Below, piece by piece: positions 175 to 57,807 of a stretch of DNA of 60,075 bases. Positions within the stretch are counted from its first letter, which is position 1. The number at the start of each line of letters is the position of its first letter. The notes beneath the pieces are model-generated. The model ran no database searches. It saw only the letters and a list, made by a program, of their open reading frames with translations, and had not been told where the DNA came from. The DNA lies in IMG/VR virus record IMGVR_UViG_3300046747_000237, positions 1-60,075 of that record; one strand, 5' to 3'. Both the position numbers and the translations under genes were made by a program. The DNA is from a virus (Duplodnaviria; Caudoviricetes).

Positions 175-253
175 GCTGCGATGAGACGCGCGCAGACACT
201 CAGCTGGCCTGACGCGGGCCAGGCAGAAACGCGCGCGCGTAGCGTCGGCTACG
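175..253. promoter_or_regulatory. Divergent pair of putative late promoters
   Basis: Minus strand: AGGCCA(210-205)-N18-TCTCAT, 30 nt before ATG174. Plus strand: GGGCCA(216-221)-N18-TAGCGT(240-245), 32 nt before ATG254. Confidence 0.7.
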
Positions 254-478
254 ATGGCCGTCGACGCAGAATCCTTCCTCGCGCTCTGCAAAGAGCTCCG
301 CACACTCGGCGCCTGCAAGGTCGAGGGCTGGGGCTTCTCGGCGGTGTTCGTGCCAGCCGATGGCGCGCACCTTCCCAAGCCCGCTACGCCCGCCAAGAAA
401 GCCGCGAAGCGCAGTGACGAGCCCACGTCCGCTGAGAAGCGCGAGGCGATGTACAAGCGCGAGCTGGGGGCCACCTGA
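254..478 (+). CDS. Hypothetical protein (74 aa)
   Basis: ORF downstream of the promoter motif; its stop overlaps the portal ATG (TGATG). Confidence 0.7.
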   Translation: MAVDAESFLALCKELRTLGACKVEGWGFSAVFVPADGAHLPKPATPAKKAAKRSDEPTSAEKREAMYKRELGAT

Positions 479-2445
479 TGGCCCGCAGAGGCGACGACGA
501 CGCAGGCAAGGCGACCGCCTCGCGCTGGTACCTGGCCGACAAGAACAAGGCCCACAGCGCCGTGGCGGTGACGTGCGACTACATCCGCTCGCAGCAGTCC
601 GACCAGCGCCGCGAGATGCGGCACCACATGGAGCTGTACTCGGCCGGCAACGTCGCGGGCCTGGGCAGCACCGGCGAGACTGCAGCAGACCGCCTATTCC
701 GCTACATGTACACGGGCCGGGCCGCGAGCCGCTTCAACATGTCCGCAGCGGTCTGTGACACCGCGCTGAGCATGATCGCGCAAGCGCCTGCCGTGCCGCA
801 GTACCTCACGGTGAGCGGTGACTTCGGGCTGCAGAGGAAGGCCGAGAAGCGCTCCCAGGTCTTGCAGTGCCAGATGAACGACTTGGCCACCGACATCCTC
901 ACCGAGGCGTTCTTGGACGCCTGCAAGGTGGGCTCAGGCTTCATCACCGGCTACCTCGACGAAGAGGGCTTGCCGGTGCTCGAGCGCGTGCATCCGCTCG
1001 AGATCCTTGTCGAGCACGCCGACGGCATCAACGGTGCGCCGCGCTCGATCCACCGCGTGAGGCTGCGTAGCCGTGAGGTGCTCAAGGCTGAGTACCCGGC
1101 GCAGGCGTGGGAGATCGAGAAAGCACCGGCGCCGAGCTCCGACTGCGTCAGCGCGTTCTTCCTGGAGCGGGTGGCCTCGGGCTCCGACATGATCGAGGTG
1201 TACGAGTCGCACCACCTGCGTAGCTCCAAGCGTGCGAAGGACGGGCGCCACACGATCTGCCTGCAGACCGCGACGCTGCTCGACGAGAGTTTCGACGTTG
1301 ACGAGCTCCCGTATCCACAGGTCCGCTACCGCAAGCGAGACTTCGGGTTCTTCGGCGCAGGCCTGGTCGAGGCGACGCGCGAGCCTCAGAACCGCGTCAA
1401 CGAGCTGATCGAGCGCGTGGCGCGCGGCCAGGACCTCGCGAGTACGCTGATCATCGCCAACCCCAACGGCGAGGGCGCGGTCAAGACCGAGCAGCTGAGC
1501 AACGAGATCGGGCTGATCGTCAACTACGACCCTGAGGTCGGCCCGCCGCAGCTGATGAAGTGGGACGGCACGCTGAGCGACCTGCAAGAGCAGATCGACC
1601 TCGAGTTCGAGCGCGTGCTCAAGGTCGAGGGCCTCTCTCAGGAGCAGGTCAACGGCGAGGGCGCAGGCGACGGGCTGACGAGCGGCGTGGCTGTGCGCGC
1701 TGCCGACGACGTGCAGTCTCGCCGGCTGGTCGCCCCCACCAAGCGCTACCAGAGCTTTTGCATCGACGTCGCCAAGCTGCTCGAGCGGCTCAACGACGAA
1801 GCGGTGCGCGAGAGCGACGGCGAGTTCACGGTCACCGGCAAGGCCACCGAGGGGCGGCGCACGTTCCTCGAGTCGTCGAAGTGGGCCGAGCTCGCGATCC
1901 CTGACGGCCAGGTCAACATCGTCATGGCGCCGATGTCCGCGCTGCCGACGACGCCACAGGGCAAGTGGGCTGCCGTGCAGGAGTGGATCGGGAGCGGCTT
2001 CATCTCGCAGCAGTACGCGATGTCGCTGCTGCAGTTCCCCGACATCGACGCCTACGCGGACCTCGAGCTCGCGCACCTCGACATGGTGCAGTGGCAGATC
2101 ACGCAGCTGCTCGACGGCAAGCCTGTGCTGCCCACGCCGCGCCAGAACCTCCAGATCGCGATGGACCTCGGCACCAAGAGCGAGCTCAAGGCGATGATGA
2201 TGCATGCGCCGGACAACATCATAGATTTGATGGAAAATTTCCTCGTCGCCTGCGGAAACATGCTCAAGGCTGCGCAGCCCCCTGCCCCGCCGATGCCTGT
2301 GCCGATGCAGGGTCCGGCGCCTGGTGGGCCGCCAGGAGCTCGCCCGCCTGGGCCGCTGCCACAGGGGCCGGTCGCGCCGATGGGGCCGCCTGTGATGCAG
2401 CCTAGACCGCAACAGCCTGTGATGCGTCCGGGGGTGGCAGCGTGA
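478..2445 (+). CDS. Portal protein (podovirus/P22-like), Pro-rich C-terminal tail
   Basis: 655 aa; portal-like segments (DACKVGSG, YRKRDFGFFGAGLVE, SGVAVRA); precedes scaffold and capsid genes. Confidence 0.8.
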   Translation: MARRGDDDAGKATASRWYLADKNKAHSAVAVTCDYIRSQQSDQRREMRHHMELYSAGNVAGLGSTGETAADRLFRYMYTGRAASRFNMSAAVCDTALSMIAQAPAVPQYLTVSGDFGLQRKAEKRSQVLQCQMNDLATDILTEAFLDACKVGSGFITGYLDEEGLPVLERVHPLEILVEHADGINGAPRSIHRVRLRSREVLKAEYPAQAWEIEKAPAPSSDCVSAFFLERVASGSDMIEVYESHHLRSSKRAKDGRHTICLQTATLLDESFDVDELPYPQVRYRKRDFGFFGAGLVEATREPQNRVNELIERVARGQDLASTLIIANPNGEGAVKTEQLSNEIGLIVNYDPEVGPPQLMKWDGTLSDLQEQIDLEFERVLKVEGLSQEQVNGEGAGDGLTSGVAVRAADDVQSRRLVAPTKRYQSFCIDVAKLLERLNDEAVRESDGEFTVTGKATEGRRTFLESSKWAELAIPDGQVNIVMAPMSALPTTPQGKWAAVQEWIGSGFISQQYAMSLLQFPDIDAYADLELAHLDMVQWQITQLLDGKPVLPTPRQNLQIAMDLGTKSELKAMMMHAPDNIIDLMENFLVACGNMLKAAQPPAPPMPVPMQGPAPGGPPGARPPGPLPQGPVAPMGPPVMQPRPQQPVMRPGVAA

Positions 2446-2723
2446 TCGCCCCGCTCGTCCTCGCTGGTCTGCTCAGCTTCGTCGGCGTCGGCGACGTGCC
2501 GCGTAGTCCGTGGCACGCGTGGCCGCGCACCGAGTGGACGTATCTCGGGCGCGCGACGTCGCGGCCCAAGTCGAGGTCGTGGTGATCTTCGGCGTCCTCG
2601 GCCTCTGGTACCTCAGCGCCGGCAACTACTTCGCTGCCGAGTGCGTGATGTTCGCCGAGGTCTGCACGCACCTCGCGATCGCAGCGGCGTGGTTATCGTG
2701 GGCGTTTGTCAGGAGCTTGCACC

Positions 2724-2939
2724 ATGAACGTCTGGGTTGAGGCGCCACCACAAGAGACCGCGACACGTCGCAGCGAGCGCCTGGTGCTGCACGGGCTGCG
2801 TTGCGGCAAGCACAGCATCGCTGCGCTGAGCTATCACATCGGCAGCGACAGCAAGGGCGTCGATGCGCGCGATGCACTCGAGCGGCTGGAGAAGCGCGGC
2901 AAGGTGAAGCGCACGGAGCGTGGCTGGGAGCTGGCGTGA
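2724..2939 (+). CDS. Small winged-helix DNA-binding protein (putative)
   Basis: AGGAG RBS before ATG2724; ARDALERLEKRGKVKRTERGWEL resembles a wHTH recognition helix plus wing. Confidence 0.5.
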   Translation: MNVWVEAPPQETATRRSERLVLHGLRCGKHSIAALSYHIGSDSKGVDARDALERLEKRGKVKRTERGWELA

Positions 2940-3185
2940 CGCGCATGCCATACGCCGCTCGCCGCACCGGCACAGGCACCATGCTGCTGCTGTATCGCGG
3001 AGGGGCCAAGCACCGCACGCACTACGCGTCGCAGTCGCCGTGGTCTGACGCGACGCAGAGGCGCTTTCGCTGGCAGGTCTACCCAGGCGGCAAGCGGTGA
3101 GCGCGATACGCGGCGCCGGCTACGCGCTGTTGATCGAGGCGGTGGTGGGGCTCGCTGTGCTACTGGTGGTGCGGTACGCGCACTG

Positions 3186-3581
3186 TTAGCGAACGGTGAT
3201 GACGCCGCGCTTGTGGTCGACGCTCTCGACGGCGACCGACGCGCTGCCGAATATCAGCGAGCGCATGAACGCCGCCTCGGTCGCCCGCCAGAAGCCTTCG
3301 TCGTACGTGATCGACCACTTGCCATCGCGCTGCACTGCGCCGAAGCCAAACTCGAAGTGCTCGGCGTCGTCGGGGTTGGCGTAGGAGAAGACGCGGTCGT
3401 ACTCGCCAGCCTCGTCGGCGACAAAGTGCGTCTTGCGGCCAGGCACCGGTCGGAACGCATCCTCAAAGCCTCCGCGCAGGCGTGCGATGTGCGGCTCGCC
3501 GGGGCGCGAGTACCAACGTGCAGGCTCCGCAGCAACGCAGTAGTCACCGAAGCACAGGCGCTCGAAGGCTTCGCGGGTCAT
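3186..3581 (-). CDS. Hypothetical protein (131 aa), antisense to the head operon
   Basis: Globular-looking ORF coupled to 3578..3775. Confidence 0.65.
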   Translation of the reverse strand: MTREAFERLCFGDYCVAAEPARWYSRPGEPHIARLRGGFEDAFRPVPGRKTHFVADEAGEYDRVFSYANPDDAEHFEFGFGAVQRDGKWSITYDEGFWRATEAAFMRSLIFGSASVAVESVDHKRGVITVR

Positions 3582-3805: not shown

Positions 3806-3835
3806 AGGCCAGCCCAATCGCACACCAATCAGCCT
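3806..3835 (+). promoter_or_regulatory. Putative late promoter (scaffold)
   Basis: AGGCCA-N18-CAGCCT, intergenic. Confidence 0.65.
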
Positions 3836-3875
3836 CGCGCTCAGCGGCATTTCGCCGCGACGAAGCAAAGAGGTC

Positions 3876-5117: not shown

Positions 5118-5147
5118 AGGCCACCCCAGGCGCGCGTCTGACAGTCT
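5118..5147 (+). promoter_or_regulatory. Putative late promoter (major capsid)
   Basis: AGGCCA-N18-CAGTCT right after the scaffold stop. Confidence 0.65.
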
Positions 5148-6679: not shown

Positions 6680-7438
6680 ATGGGGATGACTGTTTGCTCG
6701 GTAGACGGCTGCGGCGGCACGGGGAAGATCATCAAAGGCCTGTGCCAGCGCTGCTACCTGAAGGACTACTACCGCAAGCACGCGGAGAAGCTCAAGCAGC
6801 GCACGCGTGACTGGGTAAAGGCCAACACAGAGCGGGCGCGCGCCAACGACAAGAAGAAGCGCGAAGCCAAGCCGGAGAAGTACGCCTCCTACAGCACTGC
6901 TTGGCTCAAGCGAAACCCCGACTACCCGAAGGAGCACTACTACGCCAACCGCGAGGAGCTACTGGCGAAGAGCAAGGCTTGGCGGGAGGCCAATGTGGAT
7001 CTGCGCCGAGAGCGTCGGCAGGCCGAGTACTACGCCGACGTTGAAAAGTCGCGCGAGCTGGCGCGTGCGGCGCGGAAGAAGCTGAAGGCCAAGAACCCGG
7101 ACGCCTTCAAGGCCTCCGCGAAGCGCTTCAAGGCCAACAACAAAGACAAGGTCAACGCCGACACGCACAGGCGCCGCGCGCGCATCAAGGGCGGCGGCGG
7201 GAGCTACACACGCGCGGACTGGCAGGCCATCCTCGAGCGCTACCAACACACTTGCCCATGCTGCGGCAAGACGGGCGAGAAGCTGACCGTCGACCACGTG
7301 ATCCCGGTCGCGATGGGAGGTAGCTCGAACCCGGACAATTTGCAGCCGCTCTGTCGGTTTTGTAACAACAGCAAGAACGTGCGCCACACCACCCGCTACG
7401 AGCCCTGGCACCTGCAGTCTGCAGACGCCGCCGAGTAG
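6680..7438 (+). CDS. HNH endonuclease with long basic N-terminal region
   Basis: CPCCG...LTVDHVIPVAMGGSSNPDNLQPLCRFCNNSK; N-terminal CSVDGC zinc motif; TATAAT at 6661. Confidence 0.9.
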   Translation: MGMTVCSVDGCGGTGKIIKGLCQRCYLKDYYRKHAEKLKQRTRDWVKANTERARANDKKKREAKPEKYASYSTAWLKRNPDYPKEHYYANREELLAKSKAWREANVDLRRERRQAEYYADVEKSRELARAARKKLKAKNPDAFKASAKRFKANNKDKVNADTHRRRARIKGGGGSYTRADWQAILERYQHTCPCCGKTGEKLTVDHVIPVAMGGSSNPDNLQPLCRFCNNSKNVRHTTRYEPWHLQSADAAE

Positions 7439-7466
7439 GCCAGCGCAGCTCCTGAGTCCTTACCGT
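7437..7466 (+). promoter_or_regulatory. Putative late promoter
   Basis: AGGCCA-N18-TACCGT immediately after the HNH stop. Confidence 0.65.
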
Positions 7467-8237: not shown

Positions 8238-8267
8238 AGGCCAGCCAAGCGCCCGCACTCGTAGCGT
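8238..8267 (+). promoter_or_regulatory. Putative late promoter, leaderless
   Basis: AGGCCA-N18-TAGCGT, 30 nt before GTG8274. Confidence 0.7.
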
Positions 8268-12630: not shown

Positions 12631-12660
12631 AGGCCAGCGCGGGGGTCGTGCCGCGATGCT
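12631..12660 (+). promoter_or_regulatory. Putative late promoter, leaderless
   Basis: AGGCCA-N18-GATGCT, 30 nt before ATG12667; no SD. Confidence 0.7.
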
Positions 12661-20070: not shown

Positions 20071-20100
20071 AGGCCACGTTGATCTGACGGTCTGCAGACT
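20071..20100 (+). promoter_or_regulatory. Putative late promoter, leaderless
   Basis: AGGCCA-N18-CAGACT, 30 nt before ATG20107. Confidence 0.7.
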
Positions 20101-20463: not shown

Positions 20464-20464
20464 G

Positions 20465-23198: not shown

Positions 23199-23671
23199 GG
23201 CTCGCTCCCGCCCTGCTGCTCGCGCTTGCCGCCTGCACTGCCGCCCCAGAGCTCCTGCCGCACGAGCGCGCAGCCGGCGCAGCAGCGTTTACCGCGTGGG
23301 CACAGGCGGGCCTCCCCGAGCCCGACAAGGGCCGCTGCGACGTGCGCACCTTCCGCGTGCGCATGGCGAGCGCCGAGCGCTTCGTGCAGGACTGCCGCAC
23401 CGCGCCAGAGGCTGCGTACGCCTGCACCGCGTGGGAGACGACAGACGAGCTGTTCAGGTGGCGGGACGTGCCTGTGGTGGTGATTGCGCCGTGGTGGCAC
23501 AGCGAGCCGGGCATCGTGGTCCATGAAATTTGCCACGCGCTGATTCGTTGTAGCGGCATCGGGCCGTCTGCTCGCGACGCAGGGGACTCGAAGCACACCG
23601 ACCCGCGCGTCTGGAAGGCCGAAGGCGGTGAGACGTCTGTGCAAGCGCGCGCGATGAAGCTGCTCGAGTAG
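23195..23671 (+). CDS. Lipoprotein with HExxH zincin motif
   Basis: Signal with lipobox LAAC; VVHEICHAL. Confidence 0.6.
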   Translation: MRLAPALLLALAACTAAPELLPHERAAGAAAFTAWAQAGLPEPDKGRCDVRTFRVRMASAERFVQDCRTAPEAAYACTAWETTDELFRWRDVPVVVIAPWWHSEPGIVVHEICHALIRCSGIGPSARDAGDSKHTDPRVWKAEGGETSVQARAMKLLE

Positions 23672-23699
23672 GCCACCTGCCGCGTTCCGCCGCGACACT
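23670..23699 (+). promoter_or_regulatory. Putative late promoter (terL)
   Basis: AGGCCA-N18-GACACT. Confidence 0.6.
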
Positions 23700-23732: not shown

Positions 23733-25262
23733 GTGGCTGCCCTCAAAGTAACGCCCGAGCAAGCGCGCGCTGAGATTGTACGTCGCGCCTTCGTGGAGCT
23801 CGCGAAGCGGCGCGGCACGCCTGAGTACCTGCCTGCCATCGCGACGGCGATCCGCTCGGAACTGTTCCCTCGGCAGCTGGCTGTGCTCGACGACCCAAGG
23901 CGCCGCATTGCGTGGTGCTGCTCGCGACGTGCCGGCAAGACCGAGGGCGCGGTGCGCATGCTCGCGCTCTCAATCCTGGAGAGCGGAGAGGAGGAGTTCA
24001 CTGTCTTCGGAGCTCGGACGCTCGGCATCGCACGCGACTTGGTGTGGCGGCGCTTGGTGCGCCTCAACGACCGCTACTGCTTGGGCTGGAAGGTTCACGA
24101 AAGTCGCAACGAGATCTCCACCGGTGACGGCGCGGAGTTCCGCCTGTTCGGGGTCGACGACGAAGCGAGTCTCGAGAAGGTGCGCGGCAAGAAGTACCGC
24201 CTCGTCTTCTGTGACGAAAGCTCGACCTATGAGGGCAACCTCAAGAAGCTCATCCAGGAATGCTTCTCGCCCGGCACGATGGACTTTCGGCCCCGTGGCC
24301 GCATCGTCGTTGCAGGCACGCCTGGGTACGTCTGCGAGGGCTTCTGGTTCGACATCGCAGCGCGCCCGATTGAGGAAGGCGGCATCGACACGTACGCGCG
24401 GCACGGCTGGACGCTGCGCGACAACCCGCACATCCCCGACGTACACGAGGCCATCGCCGAGGAGTGCCGCGACAACAAGTGGACCGAGAACGACCCAGCC
24501 AAGCTGCGCGAGCTCGATGGCCGGTGGATCGCCGACGGCGACGCGCTGGTCTACGCGTACAACTCCCAGCGCAACTCCGTCTCCGAGCTCCCCGAGGCGC
24601 CCGAGGGTCTCACGCACGAGGAGTGGATACGCGACCACTGGCAGACCACCCTCGGCGCTGACATCGGGTACACCGACGATTTTTCGCTGGTGGTGCTTGG
24701 CTCGCCGCCGCACTCCAAGCTCATCTACGTGCTCTACGCGTACAAGCAGGCGGGTCTGCTCACCGGCCAGCAAGCTGACTTCATCCAGAAGGCTCGCCAG
24801 CGCTACAAGCCCGCACGCACGGTGATCGACGCAGGCGGGCAAGGGAAGCTGCCGCTTGAAGAGTTCAACGCCCGCTACGGCAGCAGCGCGGGCGGCAACG
24901 CGCGAGCAGCGGAGAAGCACGGCAAGATCGAGGCGATCGGCATGCTCAACAGCGACCTGCGCTACCTCGCTGAGGACGGCAAGGGAATCATCCGCGTGCT
25001 GCAACCGGATGCGGAGTGCCTGTCGAGCGAATGGATGCGCCTGCCGTGGGAGAACGAGCGGCGTGACAAGGAGTCGTCGCGGTTCCCGAAGCACGCCAGC
25101 GATGGGTGTCTGTATGCCTGGAGAGCCCACCGCGCGTACAAGGCCAAGCCTCCACCTAGCACCGAGAAGACCCCCGAGCAGATCGAGCAGGAGCTCGTCG
25201 AAGCCCGCATGAAGCGCGTCCGCGAGCAGCAGGCCAAGGGCCGCGCCTCACGCGCACGTTGA
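23733..25262 (+). CDS. terL: Terminase large subunit
   Basis: Walker A SRRAGKT, Walker B VFCDE, coupling motif AGTP, nuclease GADIG...D and HASD. Confidence 0.92.
   Translation: MAALKVTPEQARAEIVRRAFVELAKRRGTPEYLPAIATAIRSELFPRQLAVLDDPRRRIAWCCSRRAGKTEGAVRMLALSILESGEEEFTVFGARTLGIARDLVWRRLVRLNDRYCLGWKVHESRNEISTGDGAEFRLFGVDDEASLEKVRGKKYRLVFCDESSTYEGNLKKLIQECFSPGTMDFRPRGRIVVAGTPGYVCEGFWFDIAARPIEEGGIDTYARHGWTLRDNPHIPDVHEAIAEECRDNKWTENDPAKLRELDGRWIADGDALVYAYNSQRNSVSELPEAPEGLTHEEWIRDHWQTTLGADIGYTDDFSLVVLGSPPHSKLIYVLYAYKQAGLLTGQQADFIQKARQRYKPARTVIDAGGQGKLPLEEFNARYGSSAGGNARAAEKHGKIEAIGMLNSDLRYLAEDGKGIIRVLQPDAECLSSEWMRLPWENERRDKESSRFPKHASDGCLYAWRAHRAYKAKPPPSTEKTPEQIEQELVEARMKRVREQQAKGRASRAR
25231..25260 (+). 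promoter_or_regulatory. Putative late promoter, leaderless (lysis cassette)
   Basis: AGGCCA-N18-CACGTT, 30 nt before ATG25267. Confidence 0.65.
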
Positions 25263-25724: not shown

Positions 25725-26197
25725 CGCAGGGCAGTGGCGGCACGCTCTACAAGAGCGACGACATCGAGCTGCTCTTGCCGACGTGGCGCGAGAAGGTGCG
25801 CGAGCTCATGAACCGCCTCGGCGAGCTGGGGCACCGCCCGATCCTGTTCGACGGGCTGCGCACGATGGACGAGGCCAAGCGCAACGCGGCCAAGGGCGTC
25901 GGCATCGAGAACAGCATCCACTGCTACGGGGCCGCTGCCGATCTGATCTGCTCGAAGCACGGCTGGTCTTGCCAGGGCCAGCACTGCCGGTTCTTCGTGA
26001 ACCTCGGGCGCGAGGCTGACGCGATGGGCATCGTCTGGGGCGGCCACTTCACACGCGTGGATCTGCCGCACTGCCAGGGCATCTCCGTGCACATGCAAAA
26101 GGAGATGCGCGCGCTCGGAGCCGAGCCGATCACCGCAGCTGCTCGTGACAGGCTGGTGCAAGAGCACTTCAAGGCCAACGCTCCCAAGAAGGGGTGA
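25721..26197 (+). CDS. Endolysin, M15 family (L-Ala-D-Glu peptidase-like)
   Basis: GLRT...Q/E, SIHCYGAAAD, WGGHF..VDLPH motifs. Confidence 0.85.
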   Translation: MTQGSGGTLYKSDDIELLLPTWREKVRELMNRLGELGHRPILFDGLRTMDEAKRNAAKGVGIENSIHCYGAAADLICSKHGWSCQGQHCRFFVNLGREADAMGIVWGGHFTRVDLPHCQGISVHMQKEMRALGAEPITAAARDRLVQEHFKANAPKKG

Positions 26198-26201
26198 GTG
26201 T
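26172..26201 (+). promoter_or_regulatory. Putative late promoter, leaderless
   Basis: AGGCCA-N18-GAGTGT, 31 nt before ATG26209. Confidence 0.55.
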
Positions 26202-27102: not shown

Positions 27103-27132
27103 AGGCCGCGAAACGCCCCGGCAACGCATGCT
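27103..27132 (+). promoter_or_regulatory. Putative late promoter, leaderless
   Basis: AGGCCG-N18-CATGCT, 29 nt before ATG27138. Confidence 0.55.
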
Positions 27133-46820: not shown

Positions 46821-46986
46821 CCAAGACCAAAGCAGCAGCACTGATCAGCATCGCGCACGCCCGTGCAGACCTGAAAAGGCGCGTGTTGGCAGCGCATGCC
46901 GCGGGCGACCTCGGCAACGGCGCGTGGCTGACGCTGGTGCGGGATGAGATGGCGAAGATCGCGATGAGTGCGAGTGAGGGGGAGCG

Positions 46987-48037: not shown

Positions 48038-48610
48038 ATGGGGGTAGCTCTGCGAAACCACGACGACGAGACAGGCAACGTTTACCAGCTGCGACCGGCC
48101 CAGGCAGGGCTGTTCGCGGACAACGACGTCGCGTCTCGTCGCATCGATCCGAAGCGGCACGTTCTAAAATTCAAGGTCCGGTCCGACTGGGACGACGGCG
48201 ACGTGCCGCTCGAGCAGGCTGTGCAGCTGGGGCTCGACGACGCCAGCGTGGACCGTGCGCAGCTCGCGAGGGAGGCGACAGACGGGCTGCCGATCAGCGA
48301 CCGCGAGTGCCTGCGCCGTGAGCTCGGCAGCGACGCGTCAGGCCATGCGCGGGCGAAGTTCAAGTCCGAAAGGGACGCGACAGTGCTGGCGCTGTTCCAT
48401 CGGTTCAAGCGCAGCGAGGGCTACGAGCAGGCGGTGTGCTCGCTGTTCAGCGTGGTGTCGCTCGACCCGACGTACATGCGCGACGAGCCTCCGTCCTGGA
48501 TCTTGCGGCTCTTTTGCGAAGAAAAGCGGCTGCTGATGGAGACGTTCTGCCGGGACGGGGACAAGCGGATTGAGCTGGGCGACAGCGAAGAGAGCGAGGA
48601 CGAGGGATGA
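48038..48610 (+). CDS. Hypothetical protein (position of a late-gene regulator in lambdoid layouts)
   Basis: ORF after the resolvase; no motif recognised. Confidence 0.55.
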   Translation: MGVALRNHDDETGNVYQLRPAQAGLFADNDVASRRIDPKRHVLKFKVRSDWDDGDVPLEQAVQLGLDDASVDRAQLAREATDGLPISDRECLRRELGSDASGHARAKFKSERDATVLALFHRFKRSEGYEQAVCSLFSVVSLDPTYMRDEPPSWILRLFCEEKRLLMETFCRDGDKRIELGDSEESEDEG

Positions 48611-49503: not shown

Positions 49504-49533
49504 AGGCCAGTGCCGTCAGCTGTTCCGCATTGT
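49504..49533 (+). promoter_or_regulatory. Candidate late promoter for the GNAT-terS block
   Basis: AGGCCA-N18-CATTGT, ~40 nt before GTG49574. Confidence 0.4.
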
Positions 49534-49573
49534 CGCAAGTGGGCTGTTCAAGCCCGCGAGCAAGGCGGACACG

Positions 49574-51201: not shown

Positions 51202-51699
51202 ATGGACATCGCACCGCCCGACAACCTCACCGAGCTCCTCAACGCACTGACGCTCAAGCAGCGCCGGTGGGTCGAGGCGTACTTCGGCGAAGCTGCGGGC
51301 AACGCGACCAAGGCAGCGCGACTCGCTGGGTATGAGGGAACGGACGCCGTGATGGCTGTCCAGGGGTACGAGAACCGCAGAAACCCTAATATTCAGAAGG
51401 TCACCGAAGCACTCACCGAGTGCGACGGTGGCGTACCTTCGTATCTCCAGCGGCTGCGCAACTTCGGCAAAATCGCGAACGGACGAGTGATGAAGACCTG
51501 GATCAACCCGGAGACCGGCGAGGCGAGCGACGTCGAGGTGGCTGCGGAAGCGAAGGACATCATCGCAGCGAACAGGGAGATCGGCCTGTTGGCGGGCAAC
51601 TACGTTTCGAAGGTAGCCCCCACCAACGCAGCTGGCGACGACTTGAAGGGCTGGACGATGGAGCAGCTGTTGGCACTGACGCAGCTGAAGGCGGGGTGA
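51202..51699 (+). CDS. terS: Terminase small subunit
   Basis: LTLKQRRWVEAY....NATKAARLAGY...G.EN..NP.I. Confidence 0.85.
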   Translation: MDIAPPDNLTELLNALTLKQRRWVEAYFGEAAGNATKAARLAGYEGTDAVMAVQGYENRRNPNIQKVTEALTECDGGVPSYLQRLRNFGKIANGRVMKTWINPETGEASDVEVAAEAKDIIAANREIGLLAGNYVSKVAPTNAAGDDLKGWTMEQLLALTQLKAG

Positions 51700-52131: not shown

Positions 52132-52434
52132 GTGGACCGCTTCACCTGGCAAGACTGCGTGCTCGACGCCAAGCAGCACACGCTGACGGTGCAGGGCAAG
52201 CTCGTGCACATCGAGCCGCGCTGCTTCGAAGTGTTGTTGATGTTGATGCGTCGTGCTGGCGAGCTGGTGACGAAGCAAGAACTGCTTGATACGGTGGGGC
52301 GTGGGCAGAAAGTGAGCGAGGCCAGTCTGCACGTGGCGGTCGGCGTGGCGCGTAGGGCTCTCAAGAGCGGGTGCGGCTACCCGATCGAGAACGTGCCGAC
52401 GCTGGGGTATCGGTTCGTTGGCAAGGTCGAGTGA
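52132..52434 (+). CDS. Stand-alone OmpR/PhoB (CadC-like) winged-helix DNA-binding domain
   Basis: LD....L...G..V.IEPRCFEVLL.L....GELVTKQELLD.V...V.E.SL...V...RRAL...IENVPTLGYRF. Confidence 0.85.
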   Translation: MDRFTWQDCVLDAKQHTLTVQGKLVHIEPRCFEVLLMLMRRAGELVTKQELLDTVGRGQKVSEASLHVAVGVARRALKSGCGYPIENVPTLGYRFVGKVE

Positions 52435-52795: not shown

Positions 52796-53083
52796 ATGGG
52801 CGAGCACGAAGACTTGGCAGAGCGTCAGGTGAAAGCGGTTGAGCGGCAGAGCGACAACGCTGCGCTGGTTGGCGAGGCTGCAAAACAGCTGGCGGATCGC
52901 CTGTCTACCGTGCAAGCGGAAGAGTCGGCGCGCGTTGCTGCAGACCGCAAGCGCAACGCCTGGCGATACTTCGTCGCCGCCATCGAGAGTGGCCACGCTG
53001 GCCAGTCCCCGCTCGCTGAGCACGTCGCCAGGCGGGCTGACGCGTACGTCGAGATGGAAGAGTCGCGCTTTGGGAGGTTGTGA
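52796..53083 (+). CDS. Hypothetical protein
   Basis: AAGGAGG RBS before ATG52796. Confidence 0.6.
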   Translation: MGEHEDLAERQVKAVERQSDNAALVGEAAKQLADRLSTVQAEESARVAADRKRNAWRYFVAAIESGHAGQSPLAEHVARRADAYVEMEESRFGRL

Positions 53084-53892
53084 TGGGCTATGACGTCTTC
53101 ACCAAGCGCTGTGGTTGCGGCGCCATCCACCCGGTGCGCACCACCTGCGGTAGCTGCATCTCGCTGCGTCGTGCTGAGGCTGTGGCGAAGGCTGGGCCGG
53201 AGCAGAAGCGGTTCAGCGGCACGCAGTGGTATGTGAGCAGCCTCAAGGCGAGCGCGTTCAAGATGCCGCCTCCCAACGAGGGCGTGACCGTCGTGGGTCC
53301 GTGGTTGACGGTCCGGGCCGACCCGAATATGCCGCGCGACACGGCCATGCTGGTGCCGGCGTTAGGCGGCTTCGTCGACATGTCCGCCCCGGTCAGCAGC
53401 GCTGAGGTCTTCCGCCGCGAGCAGCAGTACCAGCGCGAGCTGGGCAACCTGCCGATGCTGAGCGACATGCAGCCGGAGAAGCCTGCGAAGCCGAAGCCAC
53501 GCAGCACCGTCGAGAAGCTGCGCGACGCCATGACGGGCATGCCTGCGGCCGAGGCGTACGACACGTTGAGGGAGACCGAGCGCCGGTACGGCGTGCGTGG
53601 CAGGTCGGCATGGTGCAAGCCGATGTCACCGGGTGCTTCCCTCAGCCCGCTTACAGCGGCCAGCGCCGCGAAGGAACGGTACATCGACGCCGACTGCAAC
53701 GAGGTCCGCGAGGCGCTGGGCGGCATGGTCGAGGACTGCTACGGGCAGCTGCGGCGCATCGGCGACACGAGCCCGGCTGTGCCAGGTCCGCTTGCGGTCA
53801 GGAGCGGTCGACAGCACGGCAAGCAGGAGGCAATGAGCAAGGCAGACGCGATGGAGAAGTGGTGCCGCGACATGGGGATACCGGTGCGATGA
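53080..53892 (+). CDS. Hypothetical protein (N-terminal Cys motifs)
   Basis: Coupled ORF. Confidence 0.5.
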   Translation: MMGYDVFTKRCGCGAIHPVRTTCGSCISLRRAEAVAKAGPEQKRFSGTQWYVSSLKASAFKMPPPNEGVTVVGPWLTVRADPNMPRDTAMLVPALGGFVDMSAPVSSAEVFRREQQYQRELGNLPMLSDMQPEKPAKPKPRSTVEKLRDAMTGMPAAEAYDTLRETERRYGVRGRSAWCKPMSPGASLSPLTAASAAKERYIDADCNEVREALGGMVEDCYGQLRRIGDTSPAVPGPLAVRSGRQHGKQEAMSKADAMEKWCRDMGIPVR

Positions 53893-54547: not shown

Positions 54548-57500
54548 CTAGACCTGCGGCACCCCGTACCGCTCGTACGCATAGCGTCGCACCAGCTGCT
54601 TCGCGTCGTAGCCCATCTCCCTGTCGTAGATGATCAGGTCCAGGAACACGAACTGCGACCCGTCGGCGACACCCAGCTGCAGCGTCGCCTGTGCGTCGTT
54701 GGTGCTGGGCGTGAAGTAGAGCTTGATCGAGCTCCGCACGTCGCTGTTGACGTCGAGCGTGCAGTCGACCTGCTGGGCCTCGACGCCACCCGTGAAGTGC
54801 ACGATGACCACGTCGCCATTGGCGTGCGCGGCGCTCGCAGGGCCGTCCGCCTGGGGCTGCGTCTCCGCGATCACGAAGTGCACGTTCCCGGTGCCAGGGT
54901 TGACGTAGGTGTAGAGCCCATCGTTGCCCGTGGTGGTGGTCTGGATCAGCCCGTTGTAGTTGTCGTTCACAACGAGCTTGGCGATCAGGAAGATCTCGCA
55001 GGGGTCACCCTGGTGGATGAAGTTCCAGTCAGCCCGCGGCAGGTTGCTCACGTACTTCTGGCCGCCCGTGAAGGTCACTCCGAGCGCGTTGTTCGCGGTT
55101 GGGATGGCAACAGGCACTGCAACGCGCTCGCCGACGATGGCTGAGAGTGTGTGGCCGCCGACCACGAGATCTTGGAACGCGGTGACGAGCCCGCCGGCCT
55201 GGGTGTACGTGTCCGCGCGGATCCAGCACGCGGGCAGACGGTTCTCGAGCGCCCAGTAGACGTAGCCGTCGAGCGACCACACGGCGTAGCGGTCGCGGAT
55301 GTACGCGAGCACCGCGGTGTCTTCCTCTGGTCGCAGCACGCGGTCGAAGATGATCGCCTCAGCCAGGCGCATCGTGCTGCCGAGCTCGCACAGCGCGAGC
55401 GTCTGCGGAGCCGTCACGGTCGATGGCGTGGGGAAGTCCCCCGACGTCTCGCCCTGGCCAGGGCCGTACCGCAGCTCGGCTTGGAACGACTGCAGCGCGT
55501 CTGCACGCCAGCGCACGAGCACGCCAGCGCCGTCGGGGTTGCCGTCTGGCTGGCTGAGGATGAGGTTCGCGGCTGAGGCGTTCACGACGCCTACGGACAG
55601 TCCAGCGCCCGGGTTGGTGTACGCGAAGAAGCCGTTTGAGCCGGTCGATGTGCTGGAGAGGACGGTGTTGTAGCCAGCTGTCGCCAGCGACGTCATCACC
55701 AGGTAGACGGTGCGCGCGCCCTCCTGGTGCAGGAAGTCCCAGTCGTCCGGCGCGAGCGTGCTCGTGTAGTACGAGCCGCCGTTGAACGCTGCGACCTCGG
55801 CTCCGTTGAGCGAGGTGGTGACGTCAGACACGAGGATGCGGGCCGAGTCGTCTGCCTGGGCGAACGAGTGGCCAGGGCGCACTAGGTCGGTGAAGCTCGA
55901 GATCCGGCTGCCGACGGTCACGTACGCATCTGCGCGGATGCGCGAGAACGGCCCGAGCCCGTTGACGACCGTGCTCAGGTCGCTCGCAGGCATCGACGCG
56001 ACGGTGGGCCGCCGCGAGCTCGTGAGCAGCATGGGCACCTCGCCGAGCGCCAGCGTCATGTTCGCGCCGGCGTAGATGGCGGCCTCGCGCGCGTTGCCCT
56101 CGAAGTCGACGATCGTGGCGCCAACACCGACGCGCACGGTGATCGGGGGCTCCGGGTAGTCGTTGTCGCTCCAGTAGACCGAGACCCACTGCGAGTGGTC
56201 GGCGTTGCGGAATAGATAGAAGCGCGCGCGCTGCGTCAGCCCGGGGAGCACGCCGTCCGGCACGTAGCCGCGCAGGCTGGCGACGACCTGATTGACGACG
56301 CCGTACGCAGGGCGCGGCTGCAGGCTGAAGTACAGCAGCCCCAGGCTCGCTTCGTCGTCGGTGGGCCCGTCGAAGGTGTCGCGCATGAGGTAGATGATGA
56401 AACCTCGCGCAAGCTCGTCGTGGCGCACGTACGCCATCTTCTTGGCCAGCGTGAGCGCCTGCGTTCGTTGCTGGCTGAACGCGGCGGTGCGGCCGACCTC
56501 GGACAGGTACCAGGGCATCGTCTCGTCCACGCCCGCTGCTACGCGGTTGGCCTTGACGATCTCGTAGTCCTTCTCGAGCGAGCCGAAGTCGCCGTAGTTG
56601 TGCCAGCTGTGGATCGAGAACGCGGCGTTCGCCTCAGCGAGCACGCGCGCATGGATCGTCGGGTTCAGGTCGGTCAGCCCTGCGCCGTAGATCGTCTCGC
56701 TCGCGAACGCGCAGCCCAGGATGCTCGGCGCCGTGAGCGTGCCCCGTAGCGTGGCCGCGGTGAGGTTGATGAACGCAATGAAGTCGTCGATGCCGCTTGG
56801 CTGCGCCCAGTAGATCGAGAGGTTCGGCTCGTTCCAATCCTCCCAGCGCCAGACCTTGTCGCCGTATCGAGCGGCGTAGGCCGAGACGTAGTCGACCCAG
56901 TAGGCGTCGATTGGCCGCTCGCGGCTCAGATGCAGGTCGCTCCCGTCTGCAGCGTACCGAGCGAGCGAGGCAGGCGTAGCGGCGAACGCGGCGCTGTAGC
57001 TGGTGAGCGAGACGACGCGCAGTCCGGCACCGGTCAGCAGCTCGTACGCGGCGTCGGGGCGTGACCAGTCGAGCGTGCCGTCGGGACCCTCGGTGGAGTC
57101 CCAGTTGTGGCTGTGCCGCGCGACCATGAGGCCCGCCTGGCGCATCGCCTCGATCTGCGCGTCGTTGGACGCGTCGTCGCCGAGGTCGAAGTCAGGGCCA
57201 GCGTCTCCCGCGAGCGAGATGGTTGCGCCCCAGTCGAAGTTGGCGTCGTATTCAGCCCCGGCGAACGCAGGCACGAACACGAAGTTGTCGGTGCCGCTCA
57301 CCGATCCGCCCGACCAGCTCGCCGAGTACGTGACCAGCCTGTGCCCGTAGACAGGCTCGCCGTCGGTGCGCAGCTGCAGGCTGATGCTGCCCACCGAGAG
57401 CGCGGGCACAGAGAGCGACGTGTCGAGCGGGTGGTAGCGGTTGTCGACGGTCTTGTACGAGCCGGTGACCACGACCGTCTTGGCGACCGCGTAGCCGTTG

Positions 57501-57772
57501 AACACGCCGAGGTAGCTCGAGCCCTCGTGGGCTGGGTCGATGGCGCGCACGGGGTTGTCGCAAACGACGGCCAGCGTGATCGCGTCGGTCTGCGTGAGCG
57601 GGGCGACGGTGGGCGGCTCCGAGGCGAGCAGCGTGCCGCGCTGGAGCTCGCGGACGATGGCCTCCGTGCTGGTGGTGAGCTTCCCGTCGGCGGGGATCTG
57701 AATGCCGTCGTCGTCCAGCACGACAGCGCCGGTGAGAGGCGTAACGAAGATCGGTTGCGGGGTGCGTGCCAC
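54548..57772 (-). CDS. Virion-associated clan GH-A glycoside hydrolase (GH39/GH5-like) with two LamG-like domains
   Basis: WEDWNEPN (acid/base), SWHNY, WYLSEVG (nucleophile), GLL...QPRPAY; two C-terminal lectin-like repeats. Confidence 0.75.
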   Translation of the reverse strand: MARTPQPIFVTPLTGAVVLDDDGIQIPADGKLTTSTEAIVRELQRGTLLASEPPTVAPLTQTDAITLAVVCDNPVRAIDPAHEGSSYLGVFNGYAVAKTVVVTGSYKTVDNRYHPLDTSLSVPALSVGSISLQLRTDGEPVYGHRLVTYSASWSGGSVSGTDNFVFVPAFAGAEYDANFDWGATISLAGDAGPDFDLGDDASNDAQIEAMRQAGLMVARHSHNWDSTEGPDGTLDWSRPDAAYELLTGAGLRVVSLTSYSAAFAATPASLARYAADGSDLHLSRERPIDAYWVDYVSAYAARYGDKVWRWEDWNEPNLSIYWAQPSGIDDFIAFINLTAATLRGTLTAPSILGCAFASETIYGAGLTDLNPTIHARVLAEANAAFSIHSWHNYGDFGSLEKDYEIVKANRVAAGVDETMPWYLSEVGRTAAFSQQRTQALTLAKKMAYVRHDELARGFIIYLMRDTFDGPTDDEASLGLLYFSLQPRPAYGVVNQVVASLRGYVPDGVLPGLTQRARFYLFRNADHSQWVSVYWSDNDYPEPPITVRVGVGATIVDFEGNAREAAIYAGANMTLALGEVPMLLTSSRRPTVASMPASDLSTVVNGLGPFSRIRADAYVTVGSRISSFTDLVRPGHSFAQADDSARILVSDVTTSLNGAEVAAFNGGSYYTSTLAPDDWDFLHQEGARTVYLVMTSLATAGYNTVLSSTSTGSNGFFAYTNPGAGLSVGVVNASAANLILSQPDGNPDGAGVLVRWRADALQSFQAELRYGPGQGETSGDFPTPSTVTAPQTLALCELGSTMRLAEAIIFDRVLRPEEDTAVLAYIRDRYAVWSLDGYVYWALENRLPACWIRADTYTQAGGLVTAFQDLVVGGHTLSAIVGERVAVPVAIPTANNALGVTFTGGQKYVSNLPRADWNFIHQGDPCEIFLIAKLVVNDNYNGLIQTTTTGNDGLYTYVNPGTGNVHFVIAETQPQADGPASAAHANGDVVIVHFTGGVEAQQVDCTLDVNSDVRSSIKLYFTPSTNDAQATLQLGVADGSQFVFLDLIIYDREMGYDAKQLVRRYAYERYGVPQV

Positions 57773-57777
57773 GGTGC

Positions 57778-57807
57778 AGCCTCGCGCGCGTGCGGGAGCG
57801 GTGGCCT
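57778..57807 (-). promoter_or_regulatory. Putative late promoter, leaderless
   Basis: AGGCCA-N18-GAGGCT, 29 nt before GTG57772. Confidence 0.7.

What the first reader, a model, noticed from the sequence alone, without database searches (positions are those of the whole stretch)
175..57807. Genome-wide non-canonical late promoter AGGCCA-N18-NANNNT driving mostly leaderless virion/lysis mRNAs, with no recognisable phage RNAP or sigma factor
Seen: the hexamer (A/G)GGCC(A/G) is followed after exactly 18 nt by a -10-like hexamer in front of nearly every late transcription unit. Sites (first base of the hexamer, then the -10): 210(-) TCTCAT, 216 TAGCGT, 3806 CAGCCT, 5118 CAGTCT, 7437 TACCGT, 8238 TAGCGT, 12631 GATGCT, 20071 CAGACT, 23670 GACACT, 25231 CACGTT, 26172 GAGTGT, 27103 CATGCT, 49504 CATTGT, 57807(-) GAGGCT. 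All 14 have T6 and 13 have A2. In nine the start codon is 29-32 nt after the hexamer (5-8 nt after the -10) with no Shine-Dalgarno. The early promoters instead have TTG-type -35 boxes. Known: A2/T6 are the bases sigma70 flips out during melting, and phages can replace -35 recognition (T4 AsiA/MotA, Mu C). Inference: host sigma70-type RNAP is reprogrammed at -35 by a phage factor, or an alternative host sigma is used, to make leaderless late transcripts. Candidate factors are 48038..48610, the stand-alone OmpR-type domain at 52132 and the wHTH at 2724.
Basis: partly seen in the sequence, partly recalled or inferred. Interest (0 to 1): 0.85.

Follow-up and report, generated by a model that had tools for sequence, protein, structure and literature searches.

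The report
Unusual late promoters in a soil phage
An uncultured soil phage carries about 14 copies of a two-part promoter-like signal (AGGCCA, 18 bases, then a minimal -10 box) placed so that most virion and lysis genes would be transcribed starting at their own start codon, and nothing in the genome yet shows what reads the AGGCCA part.

Summary
AGGCCA-N18-NANNNT occurs 11 times among the window's 45 AGGCCA copies (binomial P 1.5e-8). Other spacings give 0-2. It ranks first in an unbiased scan of all hexamers and spacings. All 14 listed sites point the same way as the gene downstream. Nine have the start codon 5-8 nt after the -10 box. A relative with 71% portal identity keeps the hexamer at syntenic gene junctions (29 of 30 bases) while the spacers have diverged to random level (29 of 90).

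The sites are best read as late promoters for a sigma70-family holoenzyme that make leaderless mRNAs. No sigma factor or RNA polymerase was found by Pfam on 78 ORFs or by six-frame searches. The stand-alone OmpR-type winged helix at 52132-52434 is real and is the best candidate reader of AGGCCA, but support is weak: it is missing from the partial relatives. The claim of TTG-type early promoters was not confirmed.

The host is unknown and no RNA data exist. I rate this a new variant of a known kind (phage-specific late promoter class), interest about 0.6.

The parts
181..210 (-). Promoter-like site AGGCCA-N18-TCTCAT, then 6 nt, then ATG of a 134-aa minus-strand gene (174 down to 1, continuing at 59948-59718 across the assembly's 127-bp end repeat). 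It lies back to back with site 216.
   Evidence: It is the only site without A2. The orthologous gene in G001 (20163-20567) has AGGCCA-N18-TACCGT-N6-ATG.
216..245 (+). GGGCCA-N18-TAGCGT, then 8 nt, then ATG 254 (74-aa first gene before the portal gene); leaderless type
3806..3835 (+). AGGCCA-N18-CAGCCT with a ~40-nt leader and a Shine-Dalgarno (AAGAGG) before GTG 3876 (412 aa)
   Evidence: Both hexamers and the first 22 nt of the leader are identical in G001 while the spacer has diverged.
5118..5147 (+). AGGCCA-N18-CAGTCT, ~110-nt leader before ATG 5262 (445 aa, probable capsid-module gene)
   Evidence: The syntenic G001 site is AGGCCG-N18-TACTAT.
7437..7466 (+). AGGCCA-N18-TACCGT directly after the HNH gene's stop. 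A 21-codon ORF (ATG 7476) overlaps ATG 7538 by ATGA.
8238..8267 (+). AGGCCA-N18-TAGCGT, then 6 nt, then GTG 8274 (233 aa, tail protein phrog_6013); leaderless type
12631..12660 (+). AGGCCA-N18-GATGCT, then 6 nt, then ATG 12667 (782 aa); leaderless type
   Evidence: the G001 ortholog keeps GCTGGCGGTATGG
20071..20100 (+). AGGCCA-N18-CAGACT, then 6 nt, then ATG 20107 (118 aa); leaderless type
   Evidence: G001 16547 has the same hexamers
23670..23699 (+). AGGCCA-N18-GACACT, short leader with AGAGG before GTG 23733 (large terminase)
   Evidence: L093 and L098 have AGGCCG-N18-TAACGT and AGGCCG-N18-CAGTCT before their terminase genes.
25231..25260 (+). AGGCCA-N18-CACGTT inside the 3' end of the terminase gene, then 6 nt, then ATG 25267 (88 aa, holin-like); leaderless type
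   Evidence: L091 and L092 have AGTCCA-N18-CATTCT-N6-ATG at the same place.
26172..26201 (+). AGGCCA-N18-GAGTGT inside the 3' end of the endolysin gene, then 7 nt, then ATG 26209 (155 aa, membrane anchor plus coiled coil); leaderless type
27103..27132 (+). AGGCCG-N18-CATGCT, then 5 nt, then ATG 27138 (166 aa, lipoprotein-like signal); leaderless type
49504..49533 (+). AGGCCA-N18-CATTGT within or at the start of ORF 49421-50035. Possible internal promoter for the block 49.5-53.9 kb, which holds the small terminase and the OmpR-type gene. Status uncertain.
   Evidence: It scores 17.3 in a weight matrix it did not help to build; the next best non-site scores 10.5. No leaderless ORF follows it and frame-2 coding signal runs through it.
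57778..57807 (-). AGGCCA-N18-GAGGCT, then 5 nt, then GTG 57772 (1074 aa, weak GH39/PslG-like region, probable tail depolymerase); leaderless type, though GAGG could also serve as a Shine-Dalgarno
52132..52434 (+). Stand-alone OmpR/PhoB-type winged-helix DNA-binding domain (100 aa); best but weak candidate reader of AGGCCA
   Evidence: Pfam Trans_reg_C E 1.4e-11, over cut-off. PDB response-regulator DNA-binding domains match down to E 1.8e-7. One 99-aa relative has 74% identity.
48038..48610 (+).
   Evidence: No Pfam or NCBIfam family. Atlas model has pLDDT 0.38 and no usable hit.
2724..2939 (+).
   Evidence: E 0.01-0.04, below cut-offs. Its block 2510-3581 has no counterpart in G001, where 83 nt separate the two flanking homologs.

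Best explanation
The 13-14 sites are a dedicated class of late promoters of a temperate, tailed soil phage. Shown here: a two-part motif, (C/T)AGGCCA, an 18-nt non-conserved spacer, then NANNNT followed by a G+C-rich S-G-C. It is always co-oriented with the next gene, sits almost only in the virion, packaging and lysis modules, and is conserved in relatives. Inferred: the NANNNT box is a minimal -10 element. A at -11 and T at -7 are the two bases that sigma70-family region 2 captures (established knowledge, recalled). That points to the host's multisubunit RNA polymerase with a sigma70-family sigma opening the DNA, with transcription starting 6-7 nt further on. In nine units that position is the A or G of the start codon, so the mRNA has no leader and no ribosome-binding site, and each such gene needs its own promoter. 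Because 14 of 20 -10 boxes lack the consensus first T, the promoters should depend on the upstream AGGCCA. AGGCCA matches TTGACA at only 3 of 6 positions and is absent from the early and lysogeny regions. I therefore infer that it is read by a dedicated factor made earlier in infection, which keeps the late genes silent in a lysogen. The most likely reader is the stand-alone OmpR/PhoB-type winged helix at 52132-52434, acting like the effector domains of PhoB or PmrA, whose boxes replace the -35 element. My odds: the sites are promoters, about 0.85; the nine units are leaderless, about 0.75; the factor is phage-encoded, about 0.55; the factor is the OmpR-type protein, about 0.3.
For: - Enrichment and exact spacing: 11 of 45 AGGCCA copies carry NANNNT at N18, P 1.5e-8. 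Relative G001 has 5 of 14, P 2.4e-5. AGGCCA/N18 ranks first in the unbiased hexamer x spacing scan.
- Position: all 14 sites are co-oriented with the downstream gene. Nine have the start codon 5-8 nt after the box. For 7 of those nine it is the first start codon of the open frame.
- Extra constraint after the box: G at the second following base in 15 of 20 sites, P 1.8e-4.
- Weight-matrix scan: the 14 window sites score 14.9-27.4 and the next best place scores 10.5. Site 49504, left out of training, scores 17.3.
- Footprint across 5 syntenic junctions with G001 (portal 71% identical): hexamer 29 of 30, spacer 29 of 90, -10 box 21 of 30, upstream 50 of 200, downstream 55 of 150.
- Other relatives: L098 and L093 (terminase 74% and 61% identical) have AGGCCG-N18-NANNNT before the terminase gene. 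L091, L092 and L093 have AGTCCA-N18-NANNNT-N6/7-ATG.
- Functions of the driven genes: portal operon, tail protein, large terminase, holin-like gene, gene after the endolysin, GH39-like tail enzyme.
- No sigma or RNAP in the genome.
- The OmpR-type domain is present in this genome and absent from three ~58-60 kb relatives that lack the motif.
- OmpR/PhoB-family boxes replacing the -35 element: abstract of PMC10570014 (search listing). A MotA box replacing -35 with sigma70 keeping the -10: passages of PMC7403470.
Against: - There is no transcript evidence at all: no RNA run holds the phage.
- The host is unknown, so a host sigma with this specificity cannot be excluded.
- Only one hexamer is conserved, whereas OmpR/PhoB proteins usually bind tandem repeats (recalled).
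- The OmpR-type gene was not found in G001 (21 kb), L093 (12 kb) or the other partial relatives that carry the motif. In L093 the 3.5 kb downstream of the small-terminase homolog holds no such gene.
- If 49504 is a real site, the OmpR-type gene lies behind a promoter of the class it would activate, so a start-up route by read-through would be needed.
- The G001, L093 and L098 sites were found with the motif pattern itself, so only their syntenic placement is independent.
- The logo columns for A and T are fixed by how sites were chosen.
- An equally extreme raw P value for an unrelated hexamer (CCTTGC/N25) shows that the simple background is too lenient inside genes.
Confidence: 0.6

Rival explanations
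1. The motif is the promoter consensus of a host alternative sigma factor (or of the host's own primary sigma in an unstudied phylum). The phage borrows it with no factor of its own.
For: No phage sigma or activator could be tied to the motif. The motif family AG(G/T)CC(A/G) is shared by several related phages from different metagenomes. The host is unknown.
Against: A temperate phage (integrase) with lysis genes behind host-sigma promoters would risk expressing them in the lysogen (inference). A-11/T-7 as the only conserved -10 bases is the pattern of primary-type sigmas, whose -35 is TTGACA-like in nearly all phyla (recalled). More distant relatives of the same lineage lack AGGCCA: 0, 3 and 0 pattern matches in G002-G004. 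One of them, L014, shows TANNNT 5-7 nt before long ORFs without it.
Confidence: 0.2
2. An unrecognisable phage-encoded sigma-like protein (as diverged as T4 gp55 or SPO1 gp28) among the orphan early proteins replaces the host sigma and reads both boxes.
For: Many early proteins have no family, for example 41455-42057, 48038-48610, 48607-49257 and 53080-53892. Phage sigmas with their own bipartite consensus are known (recalled; phiEco32-type sigma in the listing).
Against: No Sigma70_r2 match at E <= 1 in six frames. Region-4 models give only sub-threshold generic helix-turn-helix hits in an HNH/HTH protein and an ORF beside the integrase. Atlas look-ups of two orphans gave nothing usable.
Confidence: 0.12
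3. The AGGCCA sites are not promoters. They are oriented protein-binding sites in gene junctions, like the 'stoperators' of cluster A mycobacteriophages where the repressor blocks elongation, or another DNA- or RNA-level signal.
For: They are asymmetric, co-oriented with transcription and sit in short junctions. These features are shared with stoperators (recalled).
Against: A roadblock site does not explain the exact 18-nt distance to A...T, or the 5-8 nt from there to start codons. Six to eight informative bases cannot single out 14 of 45 AGGCCA copies without the second box.
Confidence: 0.06
4. Chance or a compositional or codon artefact.
For: One unrelated hexamer/spacing pair reached a similar raw P value.
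Against: That pair lies inside genes and is explained by codon phase. The AGGCCA sites are at gene junctions, tied to start codons, and conserved at syntenic places in relatives.
Confidence: 0.01

Closest known systems
T4 middle promoters (MotA box plus sigma70 -10, with AsiA; 'sigma appropriation')
   Same: A phage-specific element takes the place of the -35 box while a minimal TAnnnT-type -10 box is kept, and there are many copies per genome (passages of PMC7403470; copy number recalled).
   Different: The sequence and position of the upstream element differ. No MotA or AsiA family hit was found among the 78 ORFs scanned with Pfam. T4 middle mRNAs are not leaderless as a rule (recalled).
OmpR/PhoB-family activation at promoters whose -35 is replaced by the regulator's box (PhoB, PmrA, GlnR, SARP/AfsR)
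   Same: An OmpR-type winged helix is encoded. The conserved element sits where the -35 would be. The class is described in the abstracts of PMC10570014, PMC10936776 and PMC10235972 (listing).
   Different: Here the protein is only the 100-aa DNA-binding domain, is phage-borne, and the promoters show a single hexamer rather than tandem repeats. No binding was shown.
Thermus phage P23-45 middle and late promoters
   Same: The phage class promoters depend on the -10 region rather than a canonical -35, and a phage protein shifts host RNAP specificity (passages of PMC7403470).
   Different: Those are extended -10 promoters with no upstream box. No homolog of that phage was found (no phage-collection match to the 9376-12624 gene, the portal or the 1074-aa protein; terminase at most 27% identical, to T5-like phages).
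Phage-encoded sigma systems (SPO1 gp28 and gp33/34, T4 gp55, phiEco32 gp36)
   Same: Class-specific bipartite or single-box late promoters repeated through the late region (recalled; phiEco32-like case in the listing).
   Different: No sigma-like gene is detectable.
Cluster A mycobacteriophage stoperators
   Same: Short asymmetric sites in gene junctions, oriented with transcription (recalled).
   Different: Stoperators are about 13 bp and have no fixed link to a -10 box or a start codon. Here the link is exact.

Membership tests
sigma70-family bipartite promoter | -10 hexamer with A at position 2 and T at position 6 | tested here: met
   13 of 14 have A2 and 14 of 14 have T6. This was partly imposed by the search pattern, but 11 of 45 AGGCCA copies have it at N18 against 0-2 at other spacings.
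sigma70-family bipartite promoter | Upstream hexamer 16-19 bp from the -10 box | tested here: met
   18 bp in 14 of 14 sites.
sigma70-family bipartite promoter | -35 resembling TTGACA | tested here: not met
   AGGCCA matches 3 of 6 (G3, C5, A6) and lacks the TT (sequence; consensus recalled).
sigma70-family bipartite promoter | Transcription starts 6-8 nt after the -10 box | not testable with these tools
   No RNA holder is listed. The only indirect evidence is start codons 5-8 nt after the box in 9 units.
T4-type sigma appropriation (MotA/AsiA) | MotA-like activator and AsiA-like co-activator genes | tested here: not met
   No such Pfam family among 78 ORFs. Remote structural homologs are not excluded.
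OmpR/PhoB-type activator-dependent promoter | OmpR-type winged-helix protein present | tested here: met
   Trans_reg_C at 44.6-44.7 bits against a 26.2 cut-off; PDB matches.
OmpR/PhoB-type activator-dependent promoter | Tandem direct repeats with a period of about 10-11 bp at or upstream of -35 | tested here: not met
   No conserved column beyond -2..+7 of the hexamer in 20 aligned sites.
OmpR/PhoB-type activator-dependent promoter | The protein binds the box and contacts RNAP | not testable with these tools
   No DNA-binding prediction tool is available and the host RNAP is unknown.
ECF sigma promoter | ECF sigma gene (regions 2 and 4) in the element | tested here: not met
   PF04542: no match at E <= 1. 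PF04545 and PF08281: sub-threshold only.
Single-subunit phage RNAP promoter (T7-like) | T7-type RNAP gene and a contiguous conserved promoter of about 20 bp | tested here: inconclusive
   PF00940 gave no match, but the tool's controls also rang nowhere, so the search is uninformative. No RNA_pol hit in the Pfam scans of the large ORFs. The motif is bipartite with a random spacer.
Cluster A stoperator-like roadblock sites | Repressor-bound asymmetric site with no fixed relation to promoter elements | tested here: not met
   There is a fixed N18 relation to A...T and to start codons. Binding is not testable.

The most novel reading that the evidence does not exclude
A phage-borne OmpR/PhoB DNA-binding domain with no receiver domain acts as a single-copy stand-in for -35 recognition. 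It directs host RNA polymerase to about 14 per-gene promoters whose transcripts begin at the start codon. The whole late programme (virion, packaging, lysis) would then be translated from leaderless mRNAs and switched by one 100-aa protein. This would be a new form of promoter-specificity takeover, distinct from MotA/AsiA, gp55, Mu C and Q.
Probability: 0.2. Interest if true: 0.8.

Novelty: new variant of a known kind. Interest (0 to 1): 0.6.

Why it matters
Phage late-gene switches are textbook models of how RNA polymerase specificity is changed, and almost all known ones come from a few cultured phages. This is a clean, statistically solid promoter class in an uncultured soil phage lineage with no cultured relative. 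Two features are unusual together: a non-TTGACA upstream box at fixed distance from a minimal -10 box, and a one-promoter-per-gene layout that would make most late mRNAs leaderless. Within one phage lineage, relatives also appear to have exchanged a strong -10-only design for a weak -10 plus upstream box, which makes the evolution of promoter architecture open to study.

Tried and rejected
- **Host identification failed.** There was no DNA or protein match of the portal, the 1074-aa protein or the 9376-12624 gene to the phage collection. The terminase and helicase gave only 22-29% matches to phages of many phyla. Two genome-contig scans found no prophage relative. Cluster look-ups carry no organism.
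- **Sequencing runs.** No RNA holder is listed; three soil-metagenome DNA runs hold the stretch or a part of it, and one may be the source. Laying their contigs gave short pieces. Among the 40 differences shown (401 not shown), none fell in a promoter box, so nothing can be concluded.
- **IMG/VR scan with the conserved 3806 leader.** It returned G001 plus six hits that are one unrelated coding sequence.
- **IMG/VR scan with an extended motif pattern.** It returned 120 single chance hits. Re-scanning those loci found at most 3 pattern matches per locus, none tied to start codons in the five loci inspected.
- **De novo k-mer enrichment before crude gene starts.** It did not even recover AGGCCA and was dropped.
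- **TTGGCCC 'motif' in relative L012.** It is a 15-bp tandem coding repeat.
- **Relatives of the OmpR-type protein and of the 1074-aa protein in IMG/VR:** none.
- **Atlas look-ups of 53080-53892 and 48038-48610:** low-confidence models and no usable hit.
- **51202-51699 as a regulator.** Considered because it co-occurs with the motif in L093 and is absent from G002-G004. Rejected because its N-terminus is a typical small-terminase helix-turn-helix (Pfam Terminase_2; the family's usual sequence pattern is recalled).
- **Embedded spanin as a clue to a Gram-negative host.** The +1-frame ORF in 26209-26676 has a LAAC box but no signal peptide, so it was rejected.
- **RNAP catalytic motif.** A DxDGD pattern occurs once, in a replisome-organiser-like ORF.
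- **Rfam:** no family at gathering score.
- **Structure and complex prediction** were not used. The candidates are orphans with shallow alignments and the host partner is unknown.
- **Closed or unavailable.** Supplementary files of papers were not consulted.

Full report
**What the window is.** The window is a complete virus record with a 127-base direct end repeat, so it reads as a circle of 59,948 bases. It has 67% G+C and no tRNA genes.

It encodes:
- a portal, a tail protein, an HNH endonuclease and a large terminase
- a tyrosine integrase and a DnaB-type helicase
- a cI-like helix-turn-helix protein and a RecT-like protein
- an M15 peptidase endolysin
- an H-NS-like protein

It is therefore a temperate tailed phage. 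It has no cultured relative. The 9376-12624 gene, the portal and a 1074-aa protein find nothing in the phage collection. The terminase is at most about 27% identical, to T5-like phages. Public runs that hold it are soil metagenomes. The host could not be determined.

Genes run rightwards from 254 to 27964 (virion, packaging, lysis). They run leftwards from 40343 to 27961 (lysogeny and accessory genes), rightwards from 40376 to about 53900 (replication and others), and leftwards from 174 across the junction to 54548 (three large late-type genes).

**The observation.** All have T at position 6 of the second hexamer. All but 210(-) have A at position 2.

- The degenerate pattern gives 17 matches against 5.96 expected, and no shuffle of 100 reaches 17.
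- Of the 45 copies of AGGCCA on both strands, 11 are followed by NANNNT after exactly 18 bases. Every other spacing from 12 to 24 gives 0-2 (binomial P 1.5e-8).
- I also scanned without a hypothesis: all hexamers at 17 spacings, 61,149 combinations. AGGCCA at N18 came first, 11 against a background of 0.94.

**A control that weakens the raw statistics.** The second place in that scan, CCTTGC at N25, had a similar raw P value. Its ten copies lie antisense inside genes with no relation to gene starts. In a genome with about 88% G+C at third codon positions, only one spacing phase allows A and T there. Against in-phase spacings (1-3 each), its excess is P 4.6e-5, which is not significant over 61,149 tests. 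The same phase-aware background leaves AGGCCA at P 2.6e-10. So the simple statistics are too lenient inside genes. The case for AGGCCA rests mainly on position and conservation.

**Position.** All 14 sites point the same way as the next gene. Most follow the previous stop codon within a few bases, and two lie in the last codons of the upstream gene (25231, 26172).

In nine sites the start codon follows the second hexamer by 5-8 bases (216, 8238, 12631, 20071, 25231, 26172, 27103 and 57807(-); 210(-)). For seven of these nine it is the first possible start of the open frame. The exceptions are 26209, which has an upstream in-frame GTG at 26194, and the 134-aa gene behind 210(-), which runs off the window's end. 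A -10 hexamer covers -12 to -7, so six intervening bases put +1 on the first base of the codon. The observed gaps are 5, 5, 6, 6, 6, 6, 6, 7 and 8.

Eight of the nine have no purine-rich ribosome-binding stretch. Site 57807(-) has GAGG inside its box.

Four sites have leaders with Shine-Dalgarno-like runs: 3806, 5118, 23670 and 7437. At 7437 a 21-codon ORF overlaps the next ATG.

Early genes, by contrast, show ordinary AAGGAG/GGAGG runs. The host therefore uses both modes of translation start.

**Logo and weight matrix.** A logo of 20 sites (14 from the window, 6 from G001) shows information only at (C/T)AGGCCA, at the A and T of the box, and at the three bases after it. For example, G occurs at the second following base in 15 of 20 sites, P 1.8e-4. 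There is no second upstream repeat.

A weight matrix built from 13 window sites and 6 G001 sites separates 14 window places (14.9-27.4) from everything else (10.5 or less). Site 49504, left out of the training, scores 17.3. That makes it probably real, although it lies in or at the start of ORF 49421-50035. For the 13 training sites this score is circular.

**Relatives.**
- *G001.* This 21-kb IMG/VR contig has a portal 71% identical to the window's. It carries five AGGCCA sites and one AGGCCG site, all forward, with none on the reverse strand or in the reversed-pattern control. In G001, 5 of 14 AGGCCA copies have the N18 box (P 2.4e-5).
- *Synteny with G001.* Five G001 sites lie at the same gene junctions as window sites. 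In ungapped comparison, the hexamer is identical at 29 of 30 bases and the -10 box at 21 of 30. The spacer is identical at only 29 of 90, the 40 bases upstream at 50 of 200, and the 30 bases downstream at 55 of 150. The sixth G001 site precedes the ortholog of the window's 134-aa minus-strand gene. This supports the imperfect site 210(-).
- *Metagenome contigs.* Contigs with terminases 61-79% identical show AGGCCG-N18-TAACGT and AGGCCG-N18-CAGTCT before the terminase gene (L093, L098). They also show AGTCCA-N18-NANNNT followed after 6-7 bases by ATG (L091, L092, L093). The L091/L092 case was found by aligning the terminase 3' end, not by the pattern.
- *More distant relatives.* Three relatives with terminases 46-52% identical (57-60 kb contigs) lack the motif: 0, 3 and 0 matches. 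One of them, L014, shows TANNNT with a proper first T 5-7 bases before the ATG of several long ORFs and no common upstream box (by eye). In the window's clade only 6 of 20 boxes begin with T. The lineage seems to share leaderless late genes but to differ in how the promoter is strengthened.

**What reads the motif.** Pfam was run on 78 ORFs, PHROGs on 10 and NCBIfam on 10. No sigma or RNA polymerase family appeared.

- Six-frame searches found no Sigma70_r2 at E <= 1. They found only sub-threshold helix-turn-helix matches to the region-4 models, in an HNH/HTH protein and in an ORF beside the integrase.
- The T7-type RNAP model found nothing, but its controls also rang nowhere, so that search is uninformative.
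- The large orphan proteins are late genes themselves. One resembles GH39/PslG glycosidases, and the others match nothing relevant. A DxDGD pattern occurs once, in a replisome-organiser-like ORF.
- Consensus sigma70 promoters and intrinsic terminators are at shuffle level everywhere.

*The OmpR-type candidate.* The protein at 52132-52434 is a complete OmpR/PhoB-type DNA-binding domain and nothing else. Its gene lies near the end of the rightward block. It has one close stand-alone relative (74% identical, 99 aa) and few others. It is absent from the three motif-less relatives. It was also not found in the partial motif-bearing contigs G001 and L093, which is neutral to mildly negative.

*The other two candidates.* 48038-48610 and 2724-2939 gained no support. 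The block that holds 2724 has no counterpart in G001.

**Mechanism.** The A and T kept in the second box are the two bases that primary-type sigma factors capture on melting (recalled). Together with the distance to the start codons, this argues for the host's multisubunit polymerase with a sigma70-family sigma, not for a phage polymerase with a contiguous promoter.

The weak first position of the box, the strictly conserved AGGCCA, and its restriction to late modules argue that a class-specific reader is needed. For a temperate phage, a reader made only after induction is the simplest way to keep lysis genes silent. Hence my preference for a phage factor, with the OmpR-type domain first in line.

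The sites carry too little information in AGGCCA alone to be picked out of 45 copies. Joint recognition with the -10 box is therefore implied, which fits a promoter and does not fit a roadblock site. The one-promoter-per-gene layout follows from the lack of ribosome-binding sites: an internal cistron without one would be poorly translated from a read-through transcript (inference).

**Comparison with known systems.**
- The nearest in logic are T4 middle promoters, where a MotA box replaces -35 and sigma70 keeps the -10 (passages of PMC7403470).
- Also close are OmpR/PhoB-family promoters, where the regulator's box replaces the -35 element (abstract of PMC10570014; abstracts of PMC10936776 and PMC10235972 for SARP and GlnR).
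- Thermus phage P23-45 late promoters depend on the -10 region only (PMC7403470).
- Two full-text searches, one for AGGCCA with promoter, phage and leaderless, and one for late promoters with leaderless in phages, listed no paper describing this motif among the 35 papers shown of 445 matching. This covers only the held library. I saw listings and abstracts only, except for the passages of PMC7403470.

I file the finding as a new variant of a known kind, not as a member of any of these systems. For each of them a defining feature was tested and not met.

**Limits.**
- There are no transcripts, no host and no binding data.
- Only one relative has several syntenic sites.
- Several related sites were found with the motif itself.
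- The role of 49504 and the start-up of the OmpR-type gene are open.

Noticed in passing
window 6680-7438: An HNH endonuclease gene sits between the capsid-module gene and the next head gene. In relative G001 these two neighbours are adjacent, with 7 nt between them. The HNH gene has a perfect TATAAT 13 nt before its ATG, and an AGGCCA promoter (7437) starts in its stop codon. This looks like a mobile insertion, followed by a promoter that could restore downstream expression.
   Followed up: partly
window 27961-28341 (-): A phage-encoded H-NS-like protein. One of 38 ORFs hit the Pfam Histone_HNS C-terminal domain at E 1.5e-12; I assigned the hit to this ORF by a C-terminal sequence pattern recalled from memory (TWSGKGPTPGWF). 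This hints at a proteobacterial-type host, which sits oddly with widespread leaderless late genes.
   Followed up: partly
locus L014 (relative, terminase 46% identical), e.g. 2047, 6357, 10010, 13867, 19151: Long late-type ORFs start 5-7 nt after consensus TANNNT boxes with no AGGCCA upstream. The lineage seems to share leaderless late genes but uses a strong -10 box alone here, against a weak -10 box plus AGGCCA in the window's clade (judged by eye).
   Followed up: partly
window 51202-51699: A small-terminase-type gene (Terminase_2 N-terminal helix-turn-helix) lies 27 kb away from the large terminase gene (23733-25262), in the rightward block. In L093 its homolog (37% identical) lies next to a homolog of 50534-50998.
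   Followed up: partly
window 40328-40376: Only 32 nt separate the divergent cI-like and cro-like starts. They contain a perfect 14-bp palindrome, ATAACCATGGTTAT, and an A+T-rich TATATAAC. A 67-codon ORF (40362-40565) starts 7 nt after TATAAC, so the immunity genes may be leaderless too.
   Followed up: partly
window 54548-57772 (-): The 1074-aa late protein has a weak match (E 2.5e-4 to 0.05) to GH39 beta-xylosidases and PslG. It is probably a tail enzyme that cuts a host surface polysaccharide.
   Followed up: no
window 13159-13347 and 14301-14586: Tandem coding repeats of 60 and 66 nt (3.1 and 4.3 copies) inside the 782-aa gene 12667-15015. The same region gives staggered matches to G001.
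   Followed up: no
window 46820-47350: About 500 nt in which no reading frame shows the raised third-position G+C of genes, downstream of the helicase gene. Only weak short repeats are present. It could be an origin or a regulatory region.
   Followed up: partly
window 3836-3857 and G001 2005-2026: The first 22 nt of the leader behind promoter 3806 are identical in G001, although the spacer and the rest of the leader differ. Each leader folds into a hairpin using GCGGC. This may be a regulatory RNA or protein-binding element.
   Followed up: partly
locus L012 18900-19130: A relative carries a gene made of 15-nt tandem units (CAGGTTGGCCCCGGT-like), i.e. a pentapeptide-repeat protein. It produced a false 'TTGGCCC' promoter signal.
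   Followed up: yes
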